A stretch of DNA of 20,000 nt, taken from the IMG/VR virus record IMGVR_UViG_3300042154_002181. One strand, 5' to 3'. The translations under genes were made by a program, and so were the position numbers. The DNA comes from an uncultured virus (IMG/VR IMGVR_UViG_3300042154_002181). Lineage: Duplodnaviria; Heunggongvirae; Uroviricota; Caudoviricetes. The notes under the pieces are model-generated. The model was not told the DNA's origin and searched no databases. It was given only the letters and a program-made list of their open reading frames with translations. Shown here piece after piece: positions 15 through 16,996 of the stretch (its first letter is position 1; every line of letters starts with the position of its first letter).

Positions 15-46
15 GGGCGGTTCTTAATTGAACTGCCCATTTTTTT
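15..46 (+). terminator. Rho-independent (intrinsic) terminator
   Basis: 9-bp stem GGGCGGTTC (15-23) / GAACTGCCC (30-38) with one G-U pair, 6-nt loop, then A and 7 T's. A TAA at 1-3 may end an upstream gene. Confidence 0.85.
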
Positions 47-50
47 ACAC

Positions 51-121
51 TGTTTCTTGGTGTAACGGTAGCACAAGTGGTTTTGGTCCACTTAGTTTAG
101 GTTCGAATCCTAAAGGAACAT
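51..121 (+). tRNA. tRNA-Gln (anticodon UUG)
   Basis: Acceptor TGTTTCT/AGGAACA; D-stem GTGT/GCAC; anticodon stem AGTGG/CCACT with loop TT-TTG-GT (TTG at 83-85); T-arm TTAGG-TTCGAAT-CCTAA. CCA not encoded. Confidence 0.95.
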
Positions 122-181
122 CTCTTACAAATTAATTAATATACTCAAAAGATCTATTTAATAAATTAGAAGATTTAGTAT

Positions 182-199: not shown

Positions 200-355
200 T
201 ATCAGATGGTGAAACACTCTAGAGTATGGCAGACACACCCGCCCGTCTCGCGGGCGCAGAGTTTGAAATAGGTAAATGGATATGGGTTGACCACAAGCCG
301 GCTATTTTGTCTCTTACCGAATCACTGCGTGAAGGTTCGAATCCTTCTCTGATAG
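200..355 (+). tRNA. Atypical 156-nt tRNA-like RNA (GUC/Asp in the canonical register, CUC/Glu in an alternative register) with expanded D-loop and ~75-nt variable arm
   Basis: Perfect acceptor TATCAGA (200-206)/TCTGATA (348-354), discriminator G355; D-stem GTG (209-211)/CAC (234-236); stem CCCGC/GCGGG with loop CCGTCTC (243-249); variable arm closed by CGCAG (255-259)/CTGCG (325-329); perfect T-arm GAAGG-TTCGAAT-CCTTC (331-347). Confidence 0.8.
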
Positions 356-361
356 CTTTAT

Positions 362-445
362 ACCTTAGTGGCGGAACGGTATACGCGTTTGACTTAAAAT
401 CAAATGGGCTGAAAGCCCGTATGGGTTCGAATCCCATCTTAGGTA
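362..445 (+). tRNA. tRNA-Leu (anticodon UAA)
   Basis: Acceptor ACCTTAG/CTTAGGT (one T-T mismatch); D-arm GCG..GGTATA-CGC; anticodon stem TTTGA/TCAAA with loop CT-TAA-AA (TAA at 395-397); class II variable arm GGGCT-GAA-AGCCC; T-arm ATGGG-TTCGAAT-CCCAT; discriminator A445. Confidence 0.95.
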
Positions 446-460
446 CTAAAATAAACAGTT

Positions 461-2400: not shown

Positions 2401-3843
2401 ATGGTAAATGGTTATATCAAAAAAGAGGAAAGAAAAAAAATTCTACTCCTATGTGATGACATTAGAATGACATCTGGAATTTCTACAATGGCTAGAGAAA
2501 TAGTTTTAGGTACTGCGCATAGATTTAATTGGGTCAATGTAGGTGGCGCAATAAATCACCCAGAACAAGGAAAGAGATTAGATATTTCTCAAGATACAAA
2601 TGCTATAGCAGGTATTTCTGACGCGTCTATATTTTTATACCCTACAAATGGATATGGATCTCCAGAGTTAGTTAGGCAACTATTAGAAATGGAGAAGCCT
2701 GATGCTATAATGATATTCACAGATCCTCGTTATTGGGTTTGGTTATTTCAAATGGAAAATGAAATTAGAAAAAAAGTTCCTATTGTCTATTTGAATATTT
2801 GGGATGATCTACCGGCTCCCTTATATAATAAATCCTACTATGAATCTTGCGATGCATTAATGTCCATATCTAAGCAGACATTCAATATCAATAGAATGGT
2901 ACTTGGAGATACTGCAAAAAATAAGATATTAAAGTATGTACCGCATGGTATTAATGAAAAAGCTTTCTTTCCTATCAATGAATTTATGGTAGAAGAGAAT
3001 AGGCTTACTCAAGAAAAGAAAAAACAATTATTTGGAAACTTTGATCCTGAGTTTATTGTATTTTATAATGCAAGAAACATTAGACGTAAATGTACCTCTG
3101 ACTTGGTGGCAGCGTATGCTGTATTCTGTGATAAAATAGGAAAAGAAAAAGCAAGCAAGTGTGCGCTTCTTTTACATACTCAAGTTATGGATGAGAACGG
3201 TACAGACTTAAAAGCAGTTTCAGAATTATTATGTGATCCTGAATATCAAAAAGTATACTTCTCCGAAGCAAGACTTAATACAGAAGAGGTTAATAGGTTA
3301 TATAATATATCAGATGTAACGGCATTAATATCTTCTAATGAAGGATGGGGACTTTCTTTAACTGAAGCAATGATGGCAGGTAAGATGATCATAGCTAATG
3401 TTACTGGAGGAATGCAAGATCAAATGAGATTTGTAGATGAGGATGGCAAGTGGATTGATTTTAACGATAACTTCTGTTCTAATCATTACGGAACTTATAA
3501 ACAACATGGCGAATGGGCGGTACCAGTATTTCCTACTAACTTAAGTATTGTAGGATCCATTCCGACTCCTTATATCTTTGATGATCGTTGCGATTTTAGA
3601 GACGTAGCTAAAGCTATAGAAGAAGTTTACAATCTAGGATCAGAAGAAAGACATGTAAGAGGGATGAAAGCTAGAGAATGGGTAACTTCAGATGAATCCA
3701 TGATGAGTGCTAGAATAATGTGTAAAAATGTAATTGACACATTTGAAGAGACTTTTGCTACATGGAAACCTAGAAATAACTTTGAATTAATTAAAACAGA
3801 AAAACTACCTAGAAAAAAGATTCTACATAAATTAATCTACTAA
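2401..3843 (+). CDS. Glycosyltransferase, GT-B fold (GT4-like)
   Basis: N-terminal ILLLCDD..TSG, YVPHGIN, NARNIRRK, and LYNISD..SSNEGWGLSLTEAMMAG (EX7E motif), GGMQDQ. Confidence 0.92.
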   Translation: MVNGYIKKEERKKILLLCDDIRMTSGISTMAREIVLGTAHRFNWVNVGGAINHPEQGKRLDISQDTNAIAGISDASIFLYPTNGYGSPELVRQLLEMEKPDAIMIFTDPRYWVWLFQMENEIRKKVPIVYLNIWDDLPAPLYNKSYYESCDALMSISKQTFNINRMVLGDTAKNKILKYVPHGINEKAFFPINEFMVEENRLTQEKKKQLFGNFDPEFIVFYNARNIRRKCTSDLVAAYAVFCDKIGKEKASKCALLLHTQVMDENGTDLKAVSELLCDPEYQKVYFSEARLNTEEVNRLYNISDVTALISSNEGWGLSLTEAMMAGKMIIANVTGGMQDQMRFVDEDGKWIDFNDNFCSNHYGTYKQHGEWAVPVFPTNLSIVGSIPTPYIFDDRCDFRDVAKAIEEVYNLGSEERHVRGMKAREWVTSDESMMSARIMCKNVIDTFEETFATWKPRNNFELIKTEKLPRKKILHKLIY

Positions 3844-3844
3844 T

Positions 3845-5167
3845 ATGAAACAGTTGTGCGTAATATCGTGTCCTATTGACACATACTCAGGTTATGGTGC
3901 TAGAGCTAGAGATTTTTTTAAAGCTCTACATGAATTGAAAAAAGAAGAATATGAATTTATTGTCATAAGCCAACGTTGGGGATCAACTCCTTGGGGATAT
4001 ATTAAAGATAATAAAGCTGATTGGGGATGGGTGATCCCAATGATATTTGCGGGCGCACAACTTCCTAAACAACCGGATATTTGGATTCAAATAACAGTAC
4101 CTAATGAATTTCAACCACTAGGAAAACATAATATTGGAATAACTGCAGGTATTGAAACTACTATATGCGATGCTACTTGGATAGAAGGAGTAAATAGAAT
4201 GAATCTTACTTTAGTATCATCAAAACATGCAAAGTCAGTATTCGAATCATCTAAATTTGAAAAGAAAGATACCGCAACAGGACAAACTCAGTTAGTTAAA
4301 CTAGAAAAACCTGTTGAAGTATTATTTGAAGGATTAGATTTAGATCGGTATTTTCATATAGAAGATGAAGACATAGAAGCCACTGAATTGGTATCTGCTC
4401 TTGATGAAATAAAAGAAGAGTTCTGTTATTTGTTTGTAGGACATTGGTTACAAGGAGATATGGGAGAGGATAGAAAAAATGTCCCTCTTATGATCAAAAC
4501 ATTCTTAGAAACATTTAAAGATAAAAAGAATAAACCAGCTCTTATTATAAAGACTTCTGGTGCAGGCTCAAGTATTATGGATCGAGATGAAATCTTAAGA
4601 AAATTAGACATTATAAAATCAACAGTATCAGGAAATCTTCCTAATATATACTTATTACACGGTGAATTAGATGATAAAGATATTAATGATCTTTACAATC
4701 ATGGAAAAGTTAAAGCTATGTTTAATCTAACTAAAGGTGAAGGCTTTGGTAGACCGCTACTTGAATTTACTATGGCTAAAAAACCGATCATAGTATCAGG
4801 TTGGTCAGGACATACTGATTTTTTAAATCAAGAATATACATGTTTAGTACAAGGACAACTAACAAATGTACATCCATCAGCTCAAGTACCAAATATGATC
4901 TTAGCAGAGTCTAAATGGTTTAGCGCTGATATTAATCAAGCTGTACATTATTTAAAAGATGTCTACGAAAAATATGAAAAGTATCAAGAGTTAGCTAAAA
5001 GACAATCTCATTTATCAAAAACAAACTTTAGTTTTACAGAAATGAAAAAGTTATTAGGAACTTATTTAGATGTTATTCCTAAACAAGAGCCTTTAAAACT
5101 TCCGCAACTTAAGAAGATAGAACTTCCAAAACTTAATAAGATAGAACTTCCAAAACTTAATAAGTAA
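3845..5167 (+). CDS. Glycosyltransferase, GT-B fold (GT4-like)
   Basis: SGYGARAR, EDRKNV, TKGEGFGRPLLEF (EX7E), SGWSGHTDFL. Confidence 0.92.
   Translation: MKQLCVISCPIDTYSGYGARARDFFKALHELKKEEYEFIVISQRWGSTPWGYIKDNKADWGWVIPMIFAGAQLPKQPDIWIQITVPNEFQPLGKHNIGITAGIETTICDATWIEGVNRMNLTLVSSKHAKSVFESSKFEKKDTATGQTQLVKLEKPVEVLFEGLDLDRYFHIEDEDIEATELVSALDEIKEEFCYLFVGHWLQGDMGEDRKNVPLMIKTFLETFKDKKNKPALIIKTSGAGSSIMDRDEILRKLDIIKSTVSGNLPNIYLLHGELDDKDINDLYNHGKVKAMFNLTKGEGFGRPLLEFTMAKKPIIVSGWSGHTDFLNQEYTCLVQGQLTNVHPSAQVPNMILAESKWFSADINQAVHYLKDVYEKYEKYQELAKRQSHLSKTNFSFTEMKKLLGTYLDVIPKQEPLKLPQLKKIELPKLNKIELPKLNK
5090..5164 (+). repeat. 24-bp coding tandem repeat (KIELPKLN)
   Basis: AAGATAGAACTTCCAAAACTTAAT exact at 5114-5137 and 5138-5161, plus a degenerate copy at 5090-5113. 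Confidence 0.95.
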
Positions 5168-5544
5168 TGAATAGTATAGAATTTGTATTATGGCTAAAAG
5201 GTTTTACAGAAGCTTGTGAAGGCTTAACTGCAACTCCTAAACAATGGAATAGAATTAAAGATGCACTAAGTGGCGTAGAAGATTCATATGACGAAGATAA
5301 AGAGGCTTGGGATGATTGGTATCATACACCTAATCCAATAAGCAACATACCACTAAATGGATCTATGAACACATCAGGATCTTTAAATACATCAGGATCT
5401 TTAGGAGTCTCGAATACTCATACATCTATGGTCTGGAATGATAAAATGGCAGCTTGGCATTATACTAATTACCCAGACGGTTTTGGATATTATACAAATA
5501 GTAGTGCAGAAAGTAAAAATAAAAAACAACAACTCAATGACTGA
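5167..5544 (+). CDS. Hypothetical phage-type protein
   Basis: 125-aa ORF coupled by TAATG overlap; short helical N-terminus (EFVLWLKGF..QWNRIKDAL) and low-complexity remainder. Confidence 0.8.
   Translation: MNSIEFVLWLKGFTEACEGLTATPKQWNRIKDALSGVEDSYDEDKEAWDDWYHTPNPISNIPLNGSMNTSGSLNTSGSLGVSNTHTSMVWNDKMAAWHYTNYPDGFGYYTNSSAESKNKKQQLND
5359..5403 (+). repeat. 18-bp imperfect coding tandem repeat (GS[ML]NTS), 2.5 copies
   Basis: GGATCTATGAACACATCA / GGATCTTTAAATACATCA / GGATCTTTA. Confidence 0.85.
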
Positions 5545-5989
5545 TAATTTAATAACATGCCCTAAATGTGGGGTTCAAGAATCTTGCTACGTAATACCTA
5601 TAAATGAATTTCACAATTCATATGTTTGTTTTAATTGTGGTTTTCAAACAAGTGACTTAATGCGTCAAGGTGAATTTGACTTCAATGAGTATGAGAAAGA
5701 ACTTCCAGAGTTATATAAAGACATTAAACACGTAGACGAAGAAGGAAGAGTTTGGTATCCTCATATCATTAATCTAGAAGGCAAAGGCACGGTGTTTGCT
5801 AATGGATCTTCTAAAGATGATTGGCAGTGGAGTGCTATCAAATCTGTTTCACTTACAGAAGAGGAAAAAGAAAGCACTAGGTTTAAAGGAAAGACATCCA
5901 AGTCAGATTCTAAAACACTTCAAAACTTTGGTAAAGATTATTTTGAAGCATGTGACTATATTGGATTCTTTGATGTGCAACTAAACTAA
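5537..5989 (+). CDS. Hypothetical protein with N-terminal zinc ribbon
   Basis: 150 aa from ATG 5537, which overlaps the previous gene's end by 8 nt (preferred over 5438); CPKCG and CFNCG knuckles. Confidence 0.82.
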   Translation: MTDNLITCPKCGVQESCYVIPINEFHNSYVCFNCGFQTSDLMRQGEFDFNEYEKELPELYKDIKHVDEEGRVWYPHIINLEGKGTVFANGSSKDDWQWSAIKSVSLTEEEKESTRFKGKTSKSDSKTLQNFGKDYFEACDYIGFFDVQLN

Positions 5990-5994
5990 ATGTT

Positions 5995-6612
5995 ATGAAA
6001 ATTTCATACGCTATTCCTGTATGCTATGAGCATGAGGAATTAAATAGATTATTGACTCTATTAGCAAATAATAAAAGACCTGAGGATGAGATCGTAGTTC
6101 AAGCTGATCTAGGAAATACTACCAAGGAAGTCTATGAAGTAATTGATAAATTTAAAAATCAAATCAAGCTTATTGAATATCCTTTGAAAGGAAACTTTGG
6201 TCAATTCAAAAACAATCTTAAAAAGAATTGCTTAGGAGATTGGATATTTCAAATTGATGCTGATGAATACTTCAAAGAAGAGTTCATACAAAATCTACAC
6301 TTGATACTAAATGAGAATCCTACTGTAGAAGTTTTTTTACTAGCAAGAATAAATACCGTAGAAGGAATAACTAAAGAGCATATAAATCAGTGGAAGTGGA
6401 ATGTAAATGAGAAAGGTTGGGTAAATTTTCCAGACCTACAACCAAGAATTCTCCAGAACTCACCCAAGATCAATTGGGCTAACAAGGTTCATGAGGTTTT
6501 AGTCGGGCATACAAAGTATTCATTTTTTCCTTTCGATGAAGAATATTGCATCATTCATCATAAAACTATAAAAAGGCAAGAGTACCAAAATGAATTATAC
6601 TCTATACTATAA
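5995..6612 (+). CDS. Glycosyltransferase family 2 (GT-A; beta-glucosyltransferase KdtX/LgtF-like)
   Basis: KISYAIPV, DWIFQIDADE (DxD), PDLQPRI, KVHE, IIHHK. Confidence 0.9.
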   Translation: MKISYAIPVCYEHEELNRLLTLLANNKRPEDEIVVQADLGNTTKEVYEVIDKFKNQIKLIEYPLKGNFGQFKNNLKKNCLGDWIFQIDADEYFKEEFIQNLHLILNENPTVEVFLLARINTVEGITKEHINQWKWNVNEKGWVNFPDLQPRILQNSPKINWANKVHEVLVGHTKYSFFPFDEEYCIIHHKTIKRQEYQNELYSIL

Positions 6613-6643
6613 AGATTAATTTTAAATGAAACAAAAAATTTTT

Positions 6644-6651
6644 TATATTTA
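6644..6651 (+). promoter_or_regulatory. Putative promoter element TATATTTA upstream of rfbH
   Basis: In the 63-nt gap before ATG 6676; third intergenic copy of the motif. Confidence 0.45.
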
Positions 6652-6675
6652 ATAAAGATCACAAATAATATAGTT

Positions 6676-7989
6676 ATGAAAGAACTATTAGAATTAGTAG
6701 AGAAGTTCATTAATGAAAAACATAAAGAAAAAACTTGGAAAGCTGGTGAAGATTGGGTACAGTATGCAGGACCTTACTTTGATTCTAAAGAATATGTAGC
6801 AGCAGTTAAAAGCTTACTTAGTGAGTGGCTTGTATTAGGTGCTGATGCAAATAAGTTTGAAACTAAATTCCCAAAGAAGTTTGGTAAAGATTATGGACTG
6901 TTGACCAATTCAGGATCTAGCGCTAACTTACTTATGATGTTAGCATTGACTTCTAAGAGAGGTTTAAATCTTCCTAAAGGCACAAAAGTAATTACACCTA
7001 TCGCAGGTTTTCCAACAACAATCAATCCTATTTTACAAGTAGGATTTACTCCTGTGTTTGTAGACATCGAATTAGAAACATTAAACTTAGATCTAGACCA
7101 AGTAGAAAAAGCTTGTATAGACAATCCAGATGTTAAAATAATTACATTTGCTCACGTATTAGGAAATCCTCCTAATATAAATAGATTGATGGAAATAGTT
7201 GAGAAGTATAAACTAATCCTATTAGAAGATTGTTGTGATGCTTTAGGATCATACTATGAAGGAAAACCTTTAGGATCATTCGGCGAATTAGCAAGTTGCT
7301 CATTCTATCCAGCACATCATATGACTATGGGTGAAGGTGGTTTTGTTGCATGTAAAGATGAGAATACCGAAAGAATTATTCGTAGCTTTAGAGAGTGGGG
7401 TAGAGGCTGTTATTGTATAGGCAAACAAAACCTATTAGAGAAAGGATCTTGCGGTTGTCGCTTCAATACATGGCTACCATCGCTGCCAAATGATTTGTTT
7501 GATCACAAATATGTTTATGAAGAAATAGGTTATAATTTGAAACCTATTGAGCTCCAAGCATCAATCGCATTAGTTCAAATGGAGAAGCTTGAAGAAATAG
7601 GACAAAAGCGTAGAGAGAATTACAAAAATCTATTTGCTGCCTTTAGTAAGTATAAACAATATTTTCATTTACATGAAGCACAACCAGGAGCTGATGTTGA
7701 TTGGTTTGCTTTTCCAATAACAGTTAGAGATGGAGCACCATTCAAAAGATCAGATATCTGTCAATTCTTTGAAGCAAATAAAGTACAAACTAGACCTTAC
7801 TTCGCAGGTAATATTATGCTTCAACCCGCTTATGAAGGACTTATGGATCCACAAGAAGTACTTACGAAGTATCCGGTTGCAAGAAAAGTTACAACAGATA
7901 CATTCTTCTTAGGAACATCTCCGGTTATTGATAAAGATAAAATTGATTATATAGAAATTATTCTAGATAGATTTATTAACAGATTATGA
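6676..7989 (+). CDS. rfbH: CDP-4-keto-6-deoxyglucose 3-dehydratase (E1, RfbH/DdhC), DegT/DnrJ family
   Basis: NSGSSANL, FAHVLGNP, LEDCCDALGS, SFYPAHHMTMGEGG (His where aminotransferases have the Schiff-base Lys), WGRGCYC..SCGCRF, DHKY..IGYNLK. Confidence 0.92.
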   Translation: MKELLELVEKFINEKHKEKTWKAGEDWVQYAGPYFDSKEYVAAVKSLLSEWLVLGADANKFETKFPKKFGKDYGLLTNSGSSANLLMMLALTSKRGLNLPKGTKVITPIAGFPTTINPILQVGFTPVFVDIELETLNLDLDQVEKACIDNPDVKIITFAHVLGNPPNINRLMEIVEKYKLILLEDCCDALGSYYEGKPLGSFGELASCSFYPAHHMTMGEGGFVACKDENTERIIRSFREWGRGCYCIGKQNLLEKGSCGCRFNTWLPSLPNDLFDHKYVYEEIGYNLKPIELQASIALVQMEKLEEIGQKRRENYKNLFAAFSKYKQYFHLHEAQPGADVDWFAFPITVRDGAPFKRSDICQFFEANKVQTRPYFAGNIMLQPAYEGLMDPQEVLTKYPVARKVTTDTFFLGTSPVIDKDKIDYIEIILDRFINRL

Positions 7990-8969
7990 AAATAGCTTTT
8001 TTAACTGAGATGGGTTTTGAAGGAAAGATTCCTGTAGATCATTATAATATGAGGACAGAGTTTGCTTGGATGTATGCACTAGATGCAGATCACAGACATC
8101 TTTACCATTATGCAGAGATTCAGGAATATGATCATGTTTTCATCATCTTTCCAAAAGGACAAATTAATTACAGTACTATAGGAGTTAAGTTAGGTGACAT
8201 ACCTAATCCTCATTCTCAATTACTTGCTAGTGATTGGCTACTTAAGTTAAAAGCTAATAATAAAAAAGTATATTACGTACAGGAAGGTCCTCATTGGATG
8301 TTTACTGAGCTAGAGATATCAGACCAGATCCATTTCTATAATATGCTTACATCAGTTGATATGATATTTGCTCACAATAATAGTGATGTAAAGTATTACG
8401 CGGGTTTAGTTCCTAATACTCCTATTAAAACTATTCCTAGCTTAATGATAGAAGATACTATTCTAAATGTAGAATGGAAGCCTGAAGATAAAGCTATCAT
8501 AGGAGGTAACTTTGCAAGATGGTATGGAGGGTTTGAAAGCTACGTAGTAGCTCAAGAATTTCAAGTACCTATTTGGGGACAAACTTCTCATGCTAAGAAA
8601 ATCCTGGAAGATCAATTAATACTACCCTTACCTAGAGTAATGTGGACAGAATGGATTCAGCAATTAAGTACCTTTAAATATGCAGTACACTTAATGCCAA
8701 CAGTAGCAGCAGGTACTTTCGTTTTAAACTGTTCTTACTTAGGTATACCATGCATAGGAAATATAGAAGTTGATACTCAAATGCGGTGTCAAAAAGACTT
8801 AGCTGTGGACATAGCCGATGTAGAGTCAGCAAGACAATTAGCTAAAAGACTTGTTGAAGATAAAAGCTTTTATCATAGATGTAGTGAAGATGCAAAACAC
8901 TATTATAATAAGGAGTATTCATTAGATTCTTGGAAAAGAAAAATGTTTAAAATATTAAATTTTATATAA
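7986..8969 (+). CDS. Putative glycosyltransferase (divergent GT-B-like)
   Basis: MKIAFLTE start; C-terminal YAVHL..AAGTFVLNCSYLGIPCIG resembles a GT-B nucleotide-binding region; context. Confidence 0.6.
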   Translation: MKIAFLTEMGFEGKIPVDHYNMRTEFAWMYALDADHRHLYHYAEIQEYDHVFIIFPKGQINYSTIGVKLGDIPNPHSQLLASDWLLKLKANNKKVYYVQEGPHWMFTELEISDQIHFYNMLTSVDMIFAHNNSDVKYYAGLVPNTPIKTIPSLMIEDTILNVEWKPEDKAIIGGNFARWYGGFESYVVAQEFQVPIWGQTSHAKKILEDQLILPLPRVMWTEWIQQLSTFKYAVHLMPTVAAGTFVLNCSYLGIPCIGNIEVDTQMRCQKDLAVDIADVESARQLAKRLVEDKSFYHRCSEDAKHYYNKEYSLDSWKRKMFKILNFI

Positions 8970-9992
8970 ATGAAAACAGCATTAGTATTAGGAGCTGGTG
9001 GATTCATTGGCTCACATTTAGTAAGAAAATTAAAAGAGGAAGGATTTTGGGTTCGCGGTGTAGACTTAAAGTATCCTGAGTTTTCTAAAACAGCAGCTGA
9101 TGACTTTGTTATTGGCGACTTAAGAGATCCTAGAGTAGTAAATAATATTATGCTATTGGAATCGAATAACGGAGAATATCCTTTAGAGTACTCTATTCAA
9201 TCACCTCGTCCGTTTATACAGCATATGCAATGGGATGAAGTATATCAATTAGCAGCCGATATGGGTGGTGCAGGATATATTTTTACAGGTGAGAATGATG
9301 CTAATGTAATGCATAACTCTGCTACAATTAATTTAAATGTTGTTGAAGCAGCTGTAAGACACAAAGTAAAGCGTGTATTCTATAGCTCATCTGCTTGTAT
9401 GTATCCTGAACATAATCAGTTAAATCCTGAGAATCCAAACTGCGAAGAGAGTTCAGCTTATCCAGCTAATCCAGATTCAGAGTATGGATGGGAAAAATTA
9501 TTTAGTGAGAGGTTGTACTTAGCATTTGCTAGAAACTACGGCTTAGAAGTTCGTATAGCTAGATTCCATAATATATTTGGACCAGAAGGTACATATAAAG
9601 GAGGCAAAGAAAAAGCACCTGCTGCTATATGCCGTAAAGTTGCAGAAACTTTAGAGGGAGGTGAGATTGAAGTATGGGGTGATGGTTTGCAGACTAGAAG
9701 CTTTTTATACGTAGATGAGTGTGTTAAAGGTGTACTAAAGTTAATAAGATCAGACTTCGAAGGACCAGTTAACATTGGAAGTGAAGAGATGGTTACTATT
9801 AATGAATTAGCTCAATATGCAATAGATATTAGCGGTAAGAAAATAACTATTAAGAATATTCCAGGGCCTACAGGAGTTAGAGGTAGGAATTCTGATAATA
9901 AATTAATTGAAGAGAAATTAGATTGGGTACCAAATTACTCATTGTACGAAGGTTTAATACATACTTATGAGTGGATCAGAAAACAAATATGA
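8970..9992 (+). CDS. NAD-dependent epimerase, GDP-mannose 3,5-epimerase (GME)-like extended SDR
   Basis: GAGGFIG, YQLAADMGGAGYI, YSSSACMYP, YGWEK, GGKEKAPAAICRK, WGDGLQTRSF, GVRGRNSDN. Confidence 0.9.
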   Translation: MKTALVLGAGGFIGSHLVRKLKEEGFWVRGVDLKYPEFSKTAADDFVIGDLRDPRVVNNIMLLESNNGEYPLEYSIQSPRPFIQHMQWDEVYQLAADMGGAGYIFTGENDANVMHNSATINLNVVEAAVRHKVKRVFYSSSACMYPEHNQLNPENPNCEESSAYPANPDSEYGWEKLFSERLYLAFARNYGLEVRIARFHNIFGPEGTYKGGKEKAPAAICRKVAETLEGGEIEVWGDGLQTRSFLYVDECVKGVLKLIRSDFEGPVNIGSEEMVTINELAQYAIDISGKKITIKNIPGPTGVRGRNSDNKLIEEKLDWVPNYSLYEGLIHTYEWIRKQI

Positions 9993-11076
9993 TTATCTAA
10001 TAGTTGGAGCTGGTTTCTTTGGAGCTATTTGTGCTCATGAATTAACTAAAAAAGACTACAAAGTCTTAGTAATTGAGAAAAGAGATCACATAGGCGGAAA
10101 TTGCTATACAAAAAATGTAGAAGGAATTAACGTTCATGTTTATGGTCCACATATATTTCATACCTCTAACGAAAAGGTATGGAAGTGGATTAACCAGTTT
10201 GTAAAGTTTAATAATTTTACTTATAGACCAGTTGCTAACTATAACGGAGAGATTTACTCTCTTCCTTTTAATATGTGGACCTTCTCTAAGCTATGGAATG
10301 TTACACATCCTAATCAAGCTGAAATGCGTATAAGACAACAAAGTAAACATATAGGAGAGCCTACTAACTTAGAAGAACAAGCTATCAAGTTAGTTGGAGT
10401 AGATGTTTACGAAAAATTAATTAAAGGCTATACAGAAAAACAATGGAGAAAGCCTTGCACCCAACTTCCTAAAGAAATAATTAAACGCCTTCCAGTTCGC
10501 TTTAACTATGATAATAACTACTTTAACGATAAGTATCAAGGCATTCCGATAGGAGGGTATACTCAAATATTTGAAAAGCTGTTAGAAGGAGTAGACGTGC
10601 GATTAGATTATGATTACTTTACTAGTGAGTTTGATTTTGAATACGATACAGTAATCTATACAGGACCTATAGATACTTTTTATAAGTACAAGTTCGGAGA
10701 TTTAGAATATAAGACTACTAGATTTGAGCATCATATACTTGATGATAGAAATTATCAAGGAACAGCTGTAATGAACTATACCGATAGTGAATCATCTCAT
10801 ACAAGAGTAATAGAACATAAACATTTCGAAAATACAGAATCAGATAAGACTTACCTAACTTGGGAATATCCCACAGAGTATAAACCAGAAGAAACAGAGC
10901 CAATGTACCCTGTAAACGATTTAGAAAATAATACTAAATACTTAAAGTATAAGCAGTTGGCAGATAAAGAAAAAAATGTTATTTTTGGAGGTAGACTAGC
11001 AGAGTATAAGTACTACGATATGCATCAAGTTATAGACTCCGCTTTAAACTTTGTAGATAAAATAAACAATAAATAA
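9967..11076 (+). CDS. glf: UDP-galactopyranose mutase
   Basis: YDYLIVGAG, HIGGNCY, HVYGPHIFHT, GYTEKQW, YFNDKYQGIPIGGYT, EPMYPVND, GRLAEYKYYDMHQVI. Confidence 0.97.
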   Translation: MSGSENKYDYLIVGAGFFGAICAHELTKKDYKVLVIEKRDHIGGNCYTKNVEGINVHVYGPHIFHTSNEKVWKWINQFVKFNNFTYRPVANYNGEIYSLPFNMWTFSKLWNVTHPNQAEMRIRQQSKHIGEPTNLEEQAIKLVGVDVYEKLIKGYTEKQWRKPCTQLPKEIIKRLPVRFNYDNNYFNDKYQGIPIGGYTQIFEKLLEGVDVRLDYDYFTSEFDFEYDTVIYTGPIDTFYKYKFGDLEYKTTRFEHHILDDRNYQGTAVMNYTDSESSHTRVIEHKHFENTESDKTYLTWEYPTEYKPEETEPMYPVNDLENNTKYLKYKQLADKEKNVIFGGRLAEYKYYDMHQVIDSALNFVDKINNK

Positions 11077-11077
11077 T

Positions 11078-12037
11078 ATGTTAGAAAGAAAAAAGACTTT
11101 AGCAGTATTTAGCAATGTTACTACGGAAAAGTTTATGGACCGAGTACAAGAGGTAAAAGAGTATACAGAGTTGGGGTTACTTTACGGGAACGATCAAAGT
11201 AGATACGATGAGTATGCAAAATGTGCAGTAGCTAGCTTTAAAAAATGGCATCCAGACGTAGAGACTATTTTTATTGATGATAATAACTTAGAGGAGTACT
11301 TTAAGCTTTTTGGTGATATCAAGTTCGTTAATAGCGCTGTTGTACAGAAACTAATCTTAGCTCTAGCAGCAGCACAGTATTATAAAGCAGATAAGTTAAT
11401 TATTATAGATATTGACACCATTACTACTTCAAGACTTACAGAAATGTTGGAAGACGACGAGACTGATATGTTACTCTCGATGAACTATAATAGGTTTGAA
11501 ACAACTAAATACTGGACTCCTCCTTCTTATGTATTAGAGTATGAAGACGGTACTCAAGTTAAAGAGGTTGTAAATATCAATACAGGAGTTATGTGCTTTA
11601 ATAATTTAAAAGCTTTAGAGAAGTCTGTTGAGTTATGTTTTACGCATCCTACAGACTTTGGAGAGCAAGGAGCTATAAACCAATTATTTACAATGCAAGA
11701 TAGCGGATTTACATCTAAAGTATTAGACGGTCCTTATATTTTATCTGATGTTGTTTATAATGTAAAAGCTAAAGGAGTGGACCAATCAGGTATTATTTTT
11801 CAGATAGCAATGAATAATCCTGGACAGTCTTATATTAGAAATTGGTATGTTAAAGAAGGTAAGTTATTTACTCCCGATCATAAGCATATTAAAGTATGGC
11901 ATATTGCAGAAGGACTACACGGTAGACCGAAAGAAGACTTTGATAATATAACAGAGGTGTATAAAAAGCATTTATTCAATGCAGACACTATTAAATTCTT
12001 CGAAGAAGAATGTGCATGCAAAGGATTCTTTAATTAA
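11078..12037 (+). CDS. Glycosyltransferase, GT-A fold (GT8-like)
   Basis: SFKKWHPD, IIIDIDTI (DxD), INTGVMCF, GEQGAINQL, KVWH. Confidence 0.75.
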   Translation: MLERKKTLAVFSNVTTEKFMDRVQEVKEYTELGLLYGNDQSRYDEYAKCAVASFKKWHPDVETIFIDDNNLEEYFKLFGDIKFVNSAVVQKLILALAAAQYYKADKLIIIDIDTITTSRLTEMLEDDETDMLLSMNYNRFETTKYWTPPSYVLEYEDGTQVKEVVNINTGVMCFNNLKALEKSVELCFTHPTDFGEQGAINQLFTMQDSGFTSKVLDGPYILSDVVYNVKAKGVDQSGIIFQIAMNNPGQSYIRNWYVKEGKLFTPDHKHIKVWHIAEGLHGRPKEDFDNITEVYKKHLFNADTIKFFEEECACKGFFN

Positions 12038-12049
12038 TAAATTTTTAAG

Positions 12050-13957
12050 ATGTATAAAGTAGTTCACAAACCTTGGGGTAAAGAAGAATGGCTTGAATTA
12101 AACGATGCCTATTGTTATAAGAGAATTTATATCAATGCTGGTTATAAAACTTCCTTCCAGTATCATGAGTTTAAAAAAGAAACAAATTACATTATTTCAG
12201 GCGAAGCTGAAGTATGGTTAGAAAACGATGAAGGAGTTGTAGAGAAAAAAATAATGAGAGGTGGAGAGTTCTTTAACGTGACACCTCCTAAGAAGCATAG
12301 AGTGATAGCTATTACAGATATTATTTTACAGGAAGTATCTACACCGCATGTAGATGATGTATTTAGAATTGACGATGAGTTTAATAGAGCGGATGGTAAA
12401 GTAGAAGCAGAGCATAAAACTCCGGCTGTATTAATACTAGCTGCTGGTTTAGGAACTAGATTGAAAGGTCTTACAGAGAACGTTAATAAGGGTATGCTTC
12501 CTATTAACAATAAAGCTATTATCTCTCATATTATAGAAAAATTTCCTAAAGAGTATGATTTCGTAGTAGCGCTAGGATACAAAGGAGTAGAGTTACAACA
12601 ATACTGTCAACTAGCATATCCAGATCATAAATTTACATTTGTCGAAATAGATAAATACGAAGGAGAAAATTCAGGCCCTGGCTACTCGGCTCTACAATGT
12701 AAACAGCATCTCCAACGTCCTTTCTACTTTACGGTGGTAGATTGTTTAATAGAAGGTAAAGTACCTCACTTAGACGGAAACTGGTTAGGAGTTCATCCTA
12801 CAAGCTATCCTGAAAAGTACGCTACTTTAGAAGCAAATAAGGAAGGTACTATTACAAATTTTGCCAATAAGGACGTAAATGGATATGATAATGCTTTCAT
12901 TGGCTTGGCTAGTATTTGGGATTACGGCATCTTCTGGAAAGAGTTAGGAGAGAACAACGAGATTGTTTCTGCGTTTAGTACTCCATCTGTGTATCCTACC
13001 TTTAAAGCTAAAGAATTAAAATGGTTAGATACAGGTAACTTAGATGACTTAGAAAGAGCTAAAGAGTATTTCGGAGACACTCCTTTATCTTTAGCTAAGA
13101 CTACAGGAGAGATTACTTATAAAGGAAGTAGCTTTATGAAATTTACACCTAGTGTAGAAATAAATCTTAACAAAGTAAAACGAGCAGAAGCATTGCAGAG
13201 CTTAATTCCATCTAACTTTAAATGGACAGATAACTTTATAGGCTACGATTGGGAATCAGGAGATACACTCTACCGTTACAATTCATTTTATACCTATAAG
13301 AAGTTTTTAGATAAGCTAAAGACTATTATTATTAAGAGTGAAAAGTATGACGGTGATACAGAACTATTTGATAAGTTTTACGGTAAGAAAACTACAGAAA
13401 GAATAGCAGCTTTTTTAGATAGGTTTGGAGCAAGTTATTTTAATCAGAAGTTTATTATTAACGGTAAACAATATCCTTCAATAGATAGTATTACAAGTAA
13501 GATTGATACAAAACAATTTTACGAGAATCCTCTTTATACTCTATTCCACGGAGACTTACAGTTCGATAATATACTTTGGGATAATCGTATGAGTAAATTT
13601 ACTTATATTGATTGGAGAGAGTCCTTTGGCGGATCAACAAAAGGCGGAGACATTTATTACGACTTAGCTAAGTTGTATGGCGGTACTATTATACCGTATG
13701 ATATGATGAAACAGGAAAACGCTGTTACTCTTCATGAAGGCTCTACAGCAGTTACTTACAATTATTTTGTTAGTGAAGACCTATATGAATTTAGAGAGTA
13801 TTATGAAAGCTGGCTTATAGAGAATGGCTTTGATTTAGAGAAAGTAAAATTAATAACAGGTATAATATTTTTGAATATGTCTCCTTTACACGATGAGAAG
13901 TTTGCAAAAATGCTATGGTTTAAAGCAATTGAAATTTTAAATGAATATTGTAAATAA
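12050..13957 (+). CDS. Three-domain fusion: cupin + sugar-phosphate nucleotidyltransferase + APH/choline-kinase-like phosphotransferase
   Basis: Cupin: KPWGKE, SFQYH..KKET, HRV, EVST..DDVFR. NTase: ILAAGLGTRL..NKGMLP, WLDTGN. Kinase: FHGDLQFDNIL, IDWR, YYDLAKL. Confidence 0.88.
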   Translation: MYKVVHKPWGKEEWLELNDAYCYKRIYINAGYKTSFQYHEFKKETNYIISGEAEVWLENDEGVVEKKIMRGGEFFNVTPPKKHRVIAITDIILQEVSTPHVDDVFRIDDEFNRADGKVEAEHKTPAVLILAAGLGTRLKGLTENVNKGMLPINNKAIISHIIEKFPKEYDFVVALGYKGVELQQYCQLAYPDHKFTFVEIDKYEGENSGPGYSALQCKQHLQRPFYFTVVDCLIEGKVPHLDGNWLGVHPTSYPEKYATLEANKEGTITNFANKDVNGYDNAFIGLASIWDYGIFWKELGENNEIVSAFSTPSVYPTFKAKELKWLDTGNLDDLERAKEYFGDTPLSLAKTTGEITYKGSSFMKFTPSVEINLNKVKRAEALQSLIPSNFKWTDNFIGYDWESGDTLYRYNSFYTYKKFLDKLKTIIIKSEKYDGDTELFDKFYGKKTTERIAAFLDRFGASYFNQKFIINGKQYPSIDSITSKIDTKQFYENPLYTLFHGDLQFDNILWDNRMSKFTYIDWRESFGGSTKGGDIYYDLAKLYGGTIIPYDMMKQENAVTLHEGSTAVTYNYFVSEDLYEFREYYESWLIENGFDLEKVKLITGIIFLNMSPLHDEKFAKMLWFKAIEILNEYCK

Positions 13958-16637: not shown

Positions 16638-16996
16638 TAGATCCTAGACCTAAGACAATATTCTGTGACATAGACGGAACTTTAATTGAACACTTTCCTC
16701 CAGGAAGTAATTTTCATGAGTTTAGTCCAAAAGCATTACCTGGTGTTACAGAAAAAATACTTGAGTGGGATAAGAAGGGCTATAAAATAATTCTTACGAC
16801 TGGTAGAAAAGAGTCTATGAGAAAATTTACAGAGAAGCAATTAGAGCAAGCAGGTATTTTTTATGATATGCTTATCATGGGTATAGGAGGAGGAGTAAGA
16901 GTATTAATCAATGATTATAAACCAAACAGCACAGAAGAGACAGCAGTTGCTATTGTTGTTGATCGCGATAAAGGAATAAAAAATATAGAAATCTAA
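16634..16996 (+). CDS. Capless HAD-superfamily phosphatase (capsule-biosynthesis BcbF/EcbF-like)
   Basis: FCDIDGTL (motif I), LTTGR (motif II), LIND (motif IV); 120 aa. Confidence 0.85.
   Translation: MIDPRPKTIFCDIDGTLIEHFPPGSNFHEFSPKALPGVTEKILEWDKKGYKIILTTGRKESMRKFTEKQLEQAGIFYDMLIMGIGGGVRVLINDYKPNSTEETAVAIVVDRDKGIKNIEI

What the first reader, a model, noticed from the sequence alone, without database searches (positions are those of the whole stretch)
200..355. Oversized 156-nt tRNA-like RNA: Asp identity elements on a class II scaffold with a ~75-nt variable arm
Seen: between two ordinary tRNAs lies an element with a perfect 7-bp acceptor stem, perfect T-arm, a Leu/Ser-type 3-bp D-stem and a correctly spaced 5-bp stem with 7-nt loop CCGTCTC. 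The variable region (255-329) is 75 nt, closed by CGCAG/CTGCG, with further possible pairings (GGTAA 271-275/TTACC 314-318; GGATA 278-282/TGTCT 308-312; TGG-GTTGA-CCA; palindrome AGCCGGCT). Established: G34-U35-C36, C38 and G73 are tRNA-Asp identity elements and all are present, but real tRNA-Asp has a short variable loop, U33 and a purine at 37; here 33 is C and 37 is U. Inference: intact stems despite large inserts argue against a decaying pseudogene. It may be a chargeable but non-decoding tRNA mimic (e.g. decoy for anticodon nucleases, aminoacyl donor for a non-ribosomal transfer, protein scaffold) or a precursor with removable introns.
Basis: partly seen in the sequence, partly recalled or inferred. 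Interest (0 to 1): 0.85.

Follow-up and report, generated by a model that had tools for sequence, protein, structure and literature searches.

The report
Oversized Asp-type tRNA-like RNA family
The 156-base element is a real, folded, tRNA-shaped RNA gene: a phage-carried copy of an unannotated RNA family that many Bacteroidota bacteria hold on their chromosomes and that a Chitinophaga homologue expresses, with an aspartate-type anticodon loop and a giant extra arm whose job is still unknown.

Summary
Window 200-355 (plus C356) folds as a 7/3/5/5 cloverleaf with a 75-nt branched variable arm. ARAGORN in default mode and Rfam 15 both miss it.

- **Homologues:** full-length copies occur in at least 120 viral contigs and at least 120 Bacteroidota genome contigs.
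- **Covariation:** 97.2% of cells pair, against 43-49% for slid controls, and 26 of 38 pairs show double changes.
- **Origin:** it is not phage-specific. Three tested bacterial genomes each hold one strong chromosomal copy, and 15 of 151 sampled Bacteroidota genomes have it. RNA-run contigs of a Chitinophaga homologue cover it unspliced.
- **Conserved features:** U1-A72, G73 and C74 are invariant. The anticodon is always GUC and position 37 is a pyrimidine. Hosts and some phages also keep a normal tRNA-Asp, so it is an extra molecule.
- **Bacterial neighbour:** 54 of 81 loci have a divergent AsnC-like regulator upstream.
- **Viral copies:** they add gapless palindromes at the arm tip and a D-loop hairpin.
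- **Best guess, about 0.3 for the whole chain:** it matures like a tRNA, is charged by AspRS, is not an ordinary decoder, and may be a GatCAB substrate for asparagine synthesis.

I found no description of this family in Rfam 15 or in five literature searches.

The parts
200..356 (+). Whole tRNA-like gene 'X': 156 nt to discriminator G355, plus the encoded C74 at 356
   Evidence: Model R1 gives full-length matches in 27 of 80 related loci and in 80 of 80 pattern-found viral loci. It gives 90 matches in 80 bacterial loci. ARAGORN in default mode and Rfam miss it.
200..206 (+). Acceptor stem, 5' strand, pairing with 348-354. The first pair is U1-A72.
   Evidence: All 7 pairs are kept and 6 of 7 show double changes. 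U1-A72 is present in 107 of 107 distinct viral copies and in 8 of 8 pattern-free bacterial hits.
209..236 (+). D-arm: 3-bp stem 209-211/234-236 around a 22-nt loop that holds G18 and G19 (228-229)
   Evidence: D-stem cells are 100% paired and 2 of 3 pairs show double changes. The basal D-loop is 10-12 nt in 37 of 102 viral copies and 10-15 nt in 100 of 100 bacterial copies.
216..225 (+). Gapless 10-nt palindrome ACTCTAGAGT inserted in the D-loop
   Evidence: A D-loop of 20 nt or more occurs in 64 of 102 viral copies and in 0 of 100 bacterial copies. Many inserts are perfect 8-20-nt palindromes; others are ordinary hairpins.
238..254 (+). Anticodon arm: stem 238-242/250-254, loop CCGTCTC 243-249, anticodon GTC 245-247, T248 at position 37
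   Evidence: The stem is 100% paired with double changes. GTCT is invariant in 22 of 22 copies found without a pattern. GUC is present in 8 of 8 hits found by the model alone; position 37 is U in 7 and C in 1.
255..329 (+). 75-nt branched variable arm. Helices: 256-259/325-328, 264-266/322-324, 271-275/314-318 and 278-282/308-312. Internal loop: AAUA (267-270) opposite GAA (319-321).
   Evidence: Helices 4-6 covary; the two proximal ones are 99.6% and 100% paired, the third 85.2%. The arm has the same layout in bacteria, where the internal loop reads GAUAAAC opposite GGCUAA.
283..294 (+). Nearly invariant TGGGTTGACCAC. It forms hairpin G284-G285/C291-C292 with the 5-nt loop GUUGA.
   Evidence: GACCAC is invariant in the pattern-free alignment. 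The two G-C pairs never vary, so they are untestable. The motif is lost in the short bacterial paralogues.
296..303 (+). Gapless palindrome AGCCGGCT in the terminal loop of the variable arm ('H2')
   Evidence: A gapless palindrome of 8 nt or more lies here in 82 of 102 viral copies against 13 of 100 bacterial copies. It takes more than 25 different sequences of 6-12 nt.
331..347 (+). T-arm GAAGG/CCTTC with loop TTCGAAT
   Evidence: 100% paired, and 3 of 5 pairs show double changes.
51..122 (+). tRNA-Gln(ttg), the upstream neighbour on the same strand
   Evidence: ARAGORN; Rfam tRNA model, 57.8 bits.
362..446 (+). tRNA-Leu(taa), 5 nt downstream of X on the same strand
   Evidence: ARAGORN; Rfam tRNA model, 58.8 bits.

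Best explanation
Window 200-356 is a functional gene for an oversized tRNA-shaped RNA. It belongs to a conserved family found on the chromosomes of many Bacteroidota (Chitinophaga, Dyadobacter, Spirosoma, Arcicella, Saprospiraceae and others), where a Chitinophaga homologue is expressed. Large T4-like phages have taken it into their tRNA/tmRNA clusters.

**Shown.**
- The cloverleaf and the branched variable arm are kept by covariation.
- The tRNA elbow nucleotides are present.
- The 3' end has the same encoded C74 as the neighbouring real tRNA genes.
- The bacterial homologue is covered in RNA runs as one unspliced piece that ends at about G73.
- The genomes that carry it also keep a normal tRNA-Asp.

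**Inferred, step by step.**
1. It is cut out by the tRNA maturation enzymes and receives CCA (about 0.8).
2. AspRS charges it, because G34-U35-C36, C38, G73 and G2-C71 are conserved although nothing else about the molecule needs an Asp anticodon (about 0.5).
3. It is not an ordinary decoder, because position 37 is always a pyrimidine, position 33 is not always U, and the arm is 60-90 nt (about 0.7).
4. Its invariant U1-A72 makes the Asp-charged form a substrate of the amidotransferase GatCAB. U1-A72 is the pair that bacterial GatCAB needs, and the host tRNA-Asp lacks it. The RNA would then serve as an asparagine-making carrier under control of the divergent AsnC-like regulator. The phage copy would raise asparagine supply for an AT-rich, Asn-rich proteome (about 0.25-0.3).

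The palindromes in the viral copies are not explained by this chain.
For: **Family and structure.**
- establish the homologues and the covariation.
- There is one strong copy per genome in 3 of 3 bacterial genomes, and 15 of 151 sampled Bacteroidota genomes have it.

**Expression.**
- 13 of the 18 listed runs are on record as RNA (the 18 come from 12 studies) and hold 0.28-0.55 of the words of a 321-nt stretch in which X makes up 45%.
- In run X2 the summed contig depth is 82,000-270,000 over X, against about 5,000 upstream and 183 downstream.
- A 152-nt soil metatranscriptome contig covers 2977-3108 with no gap and has Illumina adapter on both sides.

**tRNA-like maturation.** C74 is encoded in 255 of 272 ordinary tRNA genes of these phages and in every X copy.

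**Asp-type identity.** GUC, C38 and G73 are conserved.

**An extra molecule, not the Asp decoder.**
- A canonical tRNA-Asp (G1-C72, A37) is present in 3 of 3 X-bearing genomes.
- One also lies beside X in 9 viral loci.

**GatCAB link.**
- U1-A72 is present in 107 of 107 viral copies and in 8 of 8 pattern-free bacterial hits.
- U1-A72 promotes amidation by bacterial AdT, and G1-C72 blocks it (PMC1635274, abstract read).
- GatB is present in 15 of 15 X-bearing genomes.
- AsnRS is present in 5 of 5 and GlnRS in 4 of 5. This is the 'why keep GatCAB' configuration discussed in PMC4206432 (abstract and passages read).

**Regulator.**
- 54 of 81 bacterial loci have a divergent regulator 125-305 nt upstream.
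- Its best NCBIfam match by a wide margin is AsnC: 157 bits, against 77 for the next family and 40 for Lrp.

**Phage demand.** The phage proteome is 6.49% Asn, against 4.69% in the bacterial flanking ORFs.
Against: - No charging, CCA end or amidation has been shown. The RNA contigs end at about G73 with no CCA visible.
- GatB occurs in 126 of 151 sampled Bacteroidota genomes, so 111 genomes have it without X. Its presence is necessary for the idea but not specific to it.
- AsnB-type asparagine synthase is present in 13 of 15 X-bearing genomes, so there is no sign that X replaces Asn synthetases. AsnA is rare everywhere, at 4 of 151.
- The regulator scores below NCBIfam's AsnC cut-off (157 against 227 bits). 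Its homologues in four AsnA-bearing genomes are not next to asnA. Where looked at, in two of them, they sit among unrelated genes.
- 27 of 81 bacterial loci lack the regulator.
- An Asn-charged carrier with a GUC anticodon would need a release step that is unknown.
- A long variable arm with G73 and G2-C71 also fits SerRS.
- The conserved internal loop, the GUUGA hairpin and the viral palindromes play no part in this model.
- The depth figures come from contigs, which the tool warns cannot rank parts of a gene.
Confidence: 0.3

Rival explanations
1. An uncharged structural mimic. The RNA uses its tRNA shape and Asp-type loop to bind and titrate a protein, without ever carrying an amino acid. 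The protein could be AspRS, a modification enzyme such as TGT, an anticodon nuclease, or an unknown partner of the conserved internal loop and GUUGA hairpin. The phage copy would act as a decoy or sponge during infection.
For: Position 37 is a pyrimidine and position 33 varies. The arm motifs are strongly conserved with no role in charging. RNA-run contigs over X carry far higher depth than those over its flanks. Viral copies carry their own elaborations. PHROGs and Pfam scans of the phage's ORFs named no partner protein.
Against: Both ends that a synthetase reads are invariant: U1-A72, G2-C71, G73 and C74 at one end, GUC and C38 at the other. C74 is kept as in real tRNA genes. The family is cellular and chromosomal, which argues against a purely anti-defence origin.
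Confidence: 0.2
2. A self-associating RNA. The gapless palindromes in exposed loops of the viral copies pair between molecules by kissing or extended duplexes. X would then form dimers, or chains where two palindromes are present. This could hold alongside any of the other readings.
For: The arm-tip palindrome is gapless, 6-12 nt long, and takes more than 25 unrelated sequences. The 6-nt forms (GCGCGC, GCTAGC, GCATGC and others, flanked by A) cannot form a hairpin on their own. It is 8 nt or more in 82 of 102 viral copies against 13 of 100 bacterial copies. A second palindrome lies in the D-loop insert. Short phage-associated RNAs that self-assemble through kissing loops are now known (bioRxiv 10.64898/2026.07.01.735769, abstract and passages read).
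Against: Seven of 102 viral copies have no palindrome longer than 4 nt. Several D-loop inserts are ordinary gapped hairpins. Bacterial copies mostly lack palindromes, so this cannot be the family's core function. A mutational origin of perfect inverted repeats is not excluded.
Confidence: 0.15
3. A working, if odd, decoding tRNA-Asp isoacceptor that reads GAY codons on the ribosome under particular conditions.
For: It has a full cloverleaf, the elbow nucleotides, a 7-nt loop and the GUC anticodon. U33 is present in about two thirds of viral copies (71 of 107) and in 84 of 100 bacterial copies. It sits in phage tRNA clusters. One viral locus has a normal-size tRNA-Asp with U37 (L124).
Against: Position 37 is always a pyrimidine. 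The arm is 59-93 nt. Normal tRNA-Asp genes coexist with it in hosts and phages. The acceptor end differs from the host tRNA-Asp (U1-A72 against G1-C72).
Confidence: 0.1
4. A serine-accepting class II tRNA with an Asp anticodon. Like the allo-tRNAs, it would be charged by SerRS through its long arm and G73.
For: It has a class II scaffold, G73 and G2-C71. Allo-tRNAs with a GUC anticodon are among the commonest in that family (PMC5389517, passages read).
Against: The acceptor/T branch is 7/5, not 8/4 or 9/3. SerRS does not read the anticodon, so an invariant GUC and C38 would be unexplained unless the RNA decodes. Decoding would put Ser at Asp codons in hundreds of species.
Confidence: 0.06
5. 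A tRNA precursor with an intron, such as ARAGORN's tRNA-Lys(ttt) with a 79-nt intron, or a chance or decayed tRNA-like sequence.
For: With introns allowed, ARAGORN reports tRNA-Lys(ttt) with a 79-nt intron at 226-304.
Against: That model needs a 3-nt D-loop. It also ignores the covarying anticodon arm and variable-arm helices. The RNA contig of the bacterial homologue keeps the whole arm. Conservation across hundreds of genomes excludes chance.
Confidence: 0.01

Closest known systems
Class II tRNAs (tRNA-Leu, tRNA-Ser)
   Same: It has a 3-bp D-stem, a D-loop of the GAAA..GGCAGA type, an extra arm that starts one base after the anticodon stem, and a canonical T-arm. Within phage T4, model R1 scores best on tRNA-Leu (37.4 bits) and tRNA-Ser (29.1 bits).
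   Different: The arm is 59-93 nt and branched, where these tRNAs have about 10-24 nt (figure recalled). The anticodon is GUC. The discriminator G73 excludes Leu and Tyr. The Rfam tRNA model does not reach E = 10 on it.
Bacterial tRNA-Asp
   Same: It shares G34-U35-C36, C38, G73 and G2-C71. The loop CUGUCUC differs from the host tRNA-Asp loop CUGUCAC at one base.
   Different: It has U37 in place of A37, and U1-A72 in place of G1-C72. The scaffold is class II. It coexists with normal tRNA-Asp genes.
tRNA-Asn as cofactor of the GatCAB transamidation pathway
   Same: It has U1-A72 and G73. GatB is present in 15 of 15 genomes that carry X. U1-A72 is the pair that bacterial AdT needs (PMC1635274, abstract read).
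   Different: The anticodon is GUC, not GUU. The arm is giant, and position 37 is a pyrimidine. No test has shown that it is a GatCAB substrate.
Phage T4 species 1 and 2 stable RNAs (rnaC 139 nt, rnaD 119 nt)
   Same: These are oversized stable RNAs of unknown function in the tRNA cluster of a T4-type phage. The present phage has a T4-type capsid, portal and terminase.
   Different: No homology was detected: R1 gives 14.8 bits on the 3' part of rnaC, less than on most of T4's own tRNAs. No T4-like anticodon arm or Asp loop is evident.
allo-tRNAs (8/4 and 9/3 tRNAs with long V-arms, often with a GUC anticodon)
   Same: They have a long arm, G73 and non-serine anticodons including GUC, and they also occur in phage tRNA clusters (PMC5389517, passages read).
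   Different: X has the canonical 7/5 branch, a much larger branched arm and an invariant anticodon.
tmRNA, and phage-associated ornate or self-assembling RNAs (GOLLD, ROOL, manA)
   Same: All are large structured RNAs carried by phages beside tRNA genes. This phage carries a tmRNA 73 nt upstream of the window. GOLLD, ROOL and manA assemble through kissing loops (PMC12286853, listing and abstract seen; bioRxiv 10.64898/2026.07.01.735769, passages read).
   Different: X keeps a complete anticodon arm and has no coding region. No Rfam model of these families matches it. Self-assembly of X is only inferred.

Membership tests
Canonical tRNA (Rfam RF00005 / ARAGORN) | Cloverleaf with 7-bp acceptor stem, D-arm, 5-bp anticodon stem with 7-nt loop, and 5-bp T-arm with a TTCRANT loop | tested here: met
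   RNAalifold and pair counts.
Canonical tRNA (Rfam RF00005 / ARAGORN) | Detected by the family model or by a standard tRNA finder | tested here: not met
   ARAGORN in default mode finds no gene at 200-356. There is no RF00005 match at gathering score, or up to E = 10.
Canonical tRNA (Rfam RF00005 / ARAGORN) | U33 and a purine at position 37 (rule recalled) | tested here: not met
   The window copy has C33 and U37. Across the family, position 37 is U, or C once. U33 is present in 71 of 107 viral copies and in 84 of 100 bacterial copies.
Canonical tRNA (Rfam RF00005 / ARAGORN) | 3' end like the neighbouring tRNA genes | tested here: met
   C74 is encoded in 255 of 272 ordinary tRNA genes of these phages and in every X copy.
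tRNA-Asp (AspRS identity set, recalled from E. coli work) | G73, G34-U35-C36, C38, G2-C71 | tested here: met
   Read from the sequence. G10 is present in the window copy but varies in the family.
tRNA-Asp (AspRS identity set, recalled from E. coli work) | Aspartylation by AspRS | not testable with these tools
   This needs an in vitro or in vivo charging assay.
Substrate of bacterial GatCAB | U1-A72 present and G1-C72 absent (PMC1635274, abstract) | tested here: met
   107 of 107 viral copies and 8 of 8 pattern-free bacterial copies have U1-A72.
Substrate of bacterial GatCAB | GatCAB encoded in the same genomes | tested here: met
   GatB is present in 15 of 15 X-bearing genomes, but also in 111 of 136 genomes without X.
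Substrate of bacterial GatCAB | Amidation of the Asp-charged RNA; no supernumerary U20A in the D-loop | not testable with these tools
   This needs a biochemical assay. D-loop numbering in this class II scaffold could not be assigned with confidence.
allo-tRNA | 8/4 or 9/3 acceptor/T branch | tested here: not met
   The branch is 7/5.
T4 rnaC / rnaD | Sequence and structure homology | tested here: not met
   R1 with filters off gives 14.8 bits on part of rnaC and no hit on rnaD.
tmRNA | Match to RF00023; no anticodon arm; a tag reading frame | tested here: not met
   X gives no Rfam match. The true tmRNA lies upstream.
Intron-containing tRNA | Mature RNA lacks the insert | tested here: not met
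   RNA contigs of the bacterial homologue keep the arm. This was not tested for the phage copy itself.

The most novel reading that the evidence does not exclude
X is a dedicated non-decoding aminoacyl carrier, built as a chimera. Its Asp anticodon loop lets an ordinary discriminating AspRS load it. Its Asn/Gln-type U1-A72 end lets GatCAB convert the load to asparagine. The pyrimidine at position 37 and the giant arm keep it off the ribosome. An AsnC-like regulator controls it. This would explain why these Bacteroidota keep GatCAB beside AsnRS and GlnRS. T4-like phages would carry their own version to feed an Asn-rich proteome, and that version would in addition self-associate through loop palindromes.
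Probability: 0.2. Interest if true: 0.9.

Novelty: new variant of a known kind. Interest (0 to 1): 0.8.

Why it matters
A tRNA-shaped RNA turns out to be a large gene family. It is missed by standard tRNA finders and absent from Rfam 15, yet it occurs in at least 120 bacterial species genomes and at least 120 viral contigs. RNA-run contigs of a Chitinophaga homologue carry depth over it far above its flanks.

It adds a new architecture to the tRNA world: a class II body, an Asp-type loop with a pyrimidine at position 37, and a conserved branched arm of 60-90 nt. It also shows that phages pick up more than tRNAs and tmRNA from the host's translation-related RNA set.

If the GatCAB/AsnC reading holds, it makes an open question directly testable: what the amidotransferase does in bacteria that already have AsnRS and GlnRS (PMC4206432). 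The loop palindromes specific to viral copies also offer a simple natural test case for RNA-RNA self-association.

Tried and rejected
- **Single-sequence folding energy.** Not significant (z = -1.12), so it was not used as evidence.
- **ARAGORN with introns.** It gives tRNA-Lys(ttt) with a 79-nt intron. I rejected this against the covariation and the RNA contigs.
- **Exact 19-mer scan of viral contigs.** It found only one near-identical contig, which is no use for covariation.
- **BLASTN against isolate phages.** Only T-arm-sized chance matches came back.
- **Rfam.** No family matched in the window, upstream, or in six bacterial loci. The weak 'drum' match (12.5 bits against a gathering score of 43) was rejected.
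- **T4 rnaC and rnaD.** No homology was detected.
- **Protein partner near X in phages.** No universal neighbour turned up. The commonest is a 75-aa ORF that ends 5-6 nt before X, in 43 of 107 loci. PHROGs on the window's ORFs and Pfam on the rest of the phage genome found no synthetase, SmpB, TROVE, RtcB or GatCAB. The window's own ORFs were scanned with PHROGs only.
- **RNAcofold dimer energies.** The median gain is -14.0 kcal/mol for viral copies and -10.6 for bacterial copies. Swapping of the near-palindromic T-arm dominates both figures, so the test is uninformative.
- **Anticorrelation with Asn synthetases.** None was found: AsnA in 4 of 151 genomes, AsnB-type in 13 of 15 X-bearing genomes.
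- **Context of the regulator's homologues.** Its homologues in four AsnA-bearing genomes without X do not lie next to asnA. The two contexts annotated are unrelated genes.
- **Earlier findings of this scan.** Nothing was on record.
- **Literature.** Five searches found no description of this RNA. Subscription journals and supplements were not covered.
- **RNA ends.** No CCA end is visible in the contigs, and contig 5' ends lie at positions 11-20 of X. Contigs cannot settle ends.
- **Promoter scan.** One weak sigma-70-like site lies at 158-187, no more than expected by chance.
Full report
**1. What is in the window**

The window is the minus strand of C1:89927-109926 of a single 162,469-bp contig with 33.4% G+C. 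The contig is a phage genome. It has a Gp23-type major capsid protein, a T4-type portal and a T4-type terminase. It also has a family A DNA polymerase, gp32, GroEL/GroES and a large sugar-modification cluster.

ARAGORN finds tRNA-Gln(ttg) at 51-122 and tRNA-Leu(taa) at 362-446, and nothing between them. Rfam at gathering score finds only these two tRNAs. Even at E up to 10 on 120-460, the tRNA model does not touch 200-356.

Just upstream of the window lies a tmRNA. It scores 56.1 bits on RF00023 against a gathering score of 47, and spans window coordinates of about -518 to -73. The local order is therefore tmRNA, tRNA-Gln, X, tRNA-Leu, all on one strand.

**2.

Read directly, 200-355 has:

- a perfect 7-bp acceptor stem;
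- U8 and G9;
- a 3-bp D-stem;
- a 5-bp anticodon stem with the 7-nt loop CCGTCTC;
- a 75-nt variable region;
- a canonical T-arm;
- discriminator G355.

Two things were missed. The D-loop is 22 nt because it carries a 10-nt gapless palindrome (216-225). A further 3-bp helix (264-266/322-324) lies in the variable arm.

Thermodynamics of the single sequence is not significant: z = -1.12. With introns allowed, ARAGORN calls a tRNA-Lys(ttt) with a 79-nt intron. That model needs a 3-nt D-loop and is contradicted by what follows.

**3. Homologues and covariation**

- Using the neighbouring exonuclease gene as bait, 80 related viral loci were fetched. nhmmer with X found full-length homologues in 27 of them, 23 distinct.
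- An alignment of 22 of these shows invariant GTCT in the loop, invariant GACCAC in the arm and invariant AGC at the 3' end.
It predicts 38 pairs, 26 of them with compensatory changes.
- A covariance model (R1) separates these 27 loci cleanly. They score 88-180 bits and the next best hit scores 38.5 bits.
All 80 loci fetched with flanks have an R1 match of 84-180 bits and 142-172 nt; two of these are cut by locus ends.
- On that alignment (71 distinct rows), 97.2% of cells form standard pairs, against 43-49% when partners are slid by 1-3 columns. It has 571 cells with changes on both sides, against 164 on average in shuffles. None of 500 shuffles reaches any observed measure.

One caveat applies. 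In pattern-found sets, GTCT, GACCAC and the T-loop are fixed by the pattern itself. Their invariance therefore rests on the pattern-free sets.

**4. It is a cellular RNA family, not a phage invention**

The 80 listed titles are all Bacteroidota names: Chitinophaga, Dyadobacter, Spirosoma, Arcicella, Emticicia, Flectobacillus, Aquirufa, Saprospiraceae, Cytophagaceae and others.
- R1 gives 90 matches of 73-118 bits in these 80 loci. They include tandem short paralogues of 110-122 nt that keep the body, the loop and the base of the arm but lose its distal part.
- Three bacterial genomes each have one strong copy.
- In an even sample of the phylum, 15 of 151 genomes have a hit at E of 1e-12 or better, under strict filters.
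- No Rfam family, and no tRNA, lies in six of these bacterial loci.
- In bacteria the arm has the same plan: two proximal helices, a conserved internal loop (GAUAAAC opposite GGCUAA), an 8-bp helix, and a terminal loop with the GG-GUUGA-CC hairpin.

**5. Expression**

- For the Chitinophaga locus L214:2880-3200, 18 runs were listed from 12 studies, 13 of them on record as RNA. They hold 0.28-0.55 of the sampled words, and X makes up 45% of that stretch.
- When laid, one transcriptome run (X2) has a summed contig depth of 82,000-270,000 across 2979-3077. The depth is about 5,000 upstream and 183 downstream.
- A soil metatranscriptome contig of 152 nt covers 2977-3108 with no gap or mismatch. 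It is flanked on both sides by Illumina adapter, so a short RNA molecule carries the complete variable arm and ends at about G73.
- These are contigs, so the depth comparison is only indicative and the ends are not settled. No CCA is seen, and the 5' ends of the contigs lie at positions 11-20 of X.
- The phage copy itself has not been shown to be transcribed.

**6. Features that bear on function**

Across 107 distinct viral copies:

- U1-A72 in 107 of 107;
- G2-C71 in 103;
- U3-A70 in 102;
- U8-G9 in 106;
- G73 in 107;
- C74 in 107.

The viral loops, after the corrected parse, are CTGTCTC in 54 copies, TCGTCTC in 32, TTGTCTC in 9, CCGTCTC in 5, TCGTCTA in 4, AAGTCTA in 2 and CCGTCTA in 1. The two AAGTCTA rows come with misparsed D-loops in that run. 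The stricter parse (102 copies) does not show them and gives U33 in 60 of 102.

In eight bacterial hits found by the model alone:

- GUC is present in 8 of 8;
- position 37 is U in 7 and C in 1;
- position 33 is U in 7 and G in 1;
- U1-A72, G73 and C74 are present in 8 of 8.

Other points:

- C74 is also encoded in 255 of 272 ordinary tRNA genes of these phages. X therefore shares their 3'-end signature.
- The host tRNA-Asp genes, found in 3 of 3 X-bearing genomes, have G1-C72 and the loop CUGUCAC.
- Nine viral loci carry a normal tRNA-Asp beside X.

X is therefore an additional molecule. Its two synthetase-facing ends are frozen: an Asp-type anticodon loop with a pyrimidine at 37, and an acceptor end of the Asn/Gln type.

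**7. The asparagine lead**

- In 54 of 81 bacterial loci with enough flank, a 156-aa regulator lies 125-305 nt upstream of X and is always divergent.
- Its best NCBIfam match is AsnC: 157.2 bits over its full length. The next family scores 77 bits and Lrp 39.7 bits. It is below the curated cut-off of 227 bits.
- Bailly et al. showed that U1-A72 promotes amidation of tRNA-bound Asp by bacterial GatCAB. They also showed that G1-C72 and U20A of tRNA-Asp prevent it (PMC1635274, abstract).
- GatB is present in 15 of 15 X-bearing genomes, AsnRS in 5 of 5 and GlnRS in 4 of 5. This combination has no obvious need for GatCAB. Alperstein et al. report it in some Bacteroidetes among other clades and leave it open (PMC4206432, abstract and passages).
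- Together these give a coherent chain: AspRS loads X through GUC, C38 and G73; GatCAB accepts it through U1-A72; the AsnC-like protein sets its level.

Evidence against the chain:

- GatB is present in 126 of 151 genomes overall.
- AsnB-type synthase is present in 13 of 15 X-bearing genomes, and AsnA is rare everywhere.
- The regulator's homologues in four AsnA-bearing genomes without X are not next to asnA. The two contexts I annotated hold unrelated genes.
- A release or use step for Asn-X is unknown.

I put the whole chain at about 0.3.

**8. What is special about the viral copies**

- In the 30 nt after GACCAC, 82 of 102 distinct viral copies have a gapless palindrome of 8 nt or more, and 95 of 102 have one of 6 nt or more. 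For bacterial copies the figures are 13 of 100 and 34 of 100.
- The palindromes take more than 25 unrelated sequences, among them GCTTGCAAGC, AGCCGGCT, GCCGGCCGGC, GCATGCATGC, TCCTGCAGGA, ACTGTGCACAGT and GCGCGC. The centre is always self-complementary. A hairpin does not require that, and the 6-nt forms cannot form a hairpin at all.
- A D-loop of 20 nt or more occurs in 64 of 102 viral copies and in 0 of 100 bacterial copies. Many of these inserts are 8-20-nt perfect palindromes, while others are ordinary hairpins.
- The simplest RNA-level reading is pairing between molecules, but this is inferred. RNAcofold could not test it, and a mutational origin is not excluded.

**9. Comparison with known things**

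- X works like, and probably descends from, a class II tRNA.
- It is not a member of RF00005 by score, and it fails the U33/purine-37 rule.
- It is not an allo-tRNA, because its branch is 7/5.
- It is not a tmRNA.
- It is not a homologue of T4 rnaC or rnaD, which are its nearest analogues by position.
- I found no description of it in Rfam 15 or in five literature searches. Those searches do not cover subscription journals or supplements.

**10. Verdict**

This is a real, widespread and previously unannotated tRNA-like RNA family. A bacterial homologue of it is expressed. The window holds its phage-borne form. Its function is open. The best-supported mechanism is a charged, non-decoding Asp-type carrier, possibly feeding GatCAB.

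Noticed in passing
Upstream of the window, about -518 to -73 (L001 601-1046, minus strand): A phage-encoded tmRNA. It scores 56.1 bits on RF00023 against a gathering score of 47. ARAGORN misses it here but calls tmRNAs in many related contigs, with tags ending ...YAVAA, ...YALAA or ...YAYAA.
   Followed up: partly
window 15-50: A terminator-like hairpin (9 pairs, 6 of them G-C) followed by a run of 7 T. It ends directly before tRNA-Gln at 51, so the tmRNA and the tRNA-Gln/X/tRNA-Leu group may be separate transcription units.
   Followed up: no
L031 1035-1146; L033 76-187; L044 399-495; L037, L038 and L039 (L037: 3002-3100); L040 3012-3110; L035 1789-1904; L005 1016-1117: Other tRNA-like elements of 97-116 nt that ARAGORN does not call. 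They score 20-37 bits on R1. Some have large D-loop inserts or odd anticodon loops, which suggests further non-canonical tRNA-like genes in these phages.
   Followed up: partly
L037, L038 and L039 (L037: 2846-2919); L040 2129-2202: ARAGORN calls tRNA-??? with four-base anticodons (aaat, aaaa) next to tRNA-Met in related phages.
   Followed up: no
L124 1781-1854: A normal-size tRNA-Asp(gtc) in a viral contig has the loop CUGUCUA, with U at position 37 as in X. It lies two genes upstream of that contig's X, with tRNA-Asn between them.
   Followed up: no
43 of 107 viral loci, for example L139 678-905 (minus strand): A conserved ORF of about 75 aa that looks membrane-like ends 5-6 nt before the 5' end of X on the same strand. 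It is absent from this window.
   Followed up: no
L244 2846-2955 and 3162-3271; L225 2550-2671 and 2777-2898; L291 3182-3296: Short paralogues of X (110-122 nt) lie in tandem beside the full-length gene in some Saprospiraceae and other Bacteroidota MAGs.
   Followed up: partly
G001 contig C17: X at 91130-91272, asnS at 98357-99781: In the Chitinophaga genome, the asparaginyl-tRNA synthetase gene lies 7 kb from X on the same strand. A TrmB-like tRNA methyltransferase gene lies about 260-290 nt downstream of X in 13 of 80 bacterial loci.
   Followed up: no
G000 C1:114235-116487 (L210 9235-11487, minus strand): The phage encodes a 750-aa protein with a TonB-dependent receptor plug and an outer-membrane beta-barrel domain. 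It also encodes GroEL, GroES and Hsp20.
   Followed up: no
window 2401-19810: A long run of sugar-modification genes: glycosyltransferases, a DegT-type aminotransferase, nucleotide-sugar epimerases and a GtrB-like protein. More lie elsewhere in the genome, including a carbamoyltransferase and a TylF-type methyltransferase.
   Followed up: no
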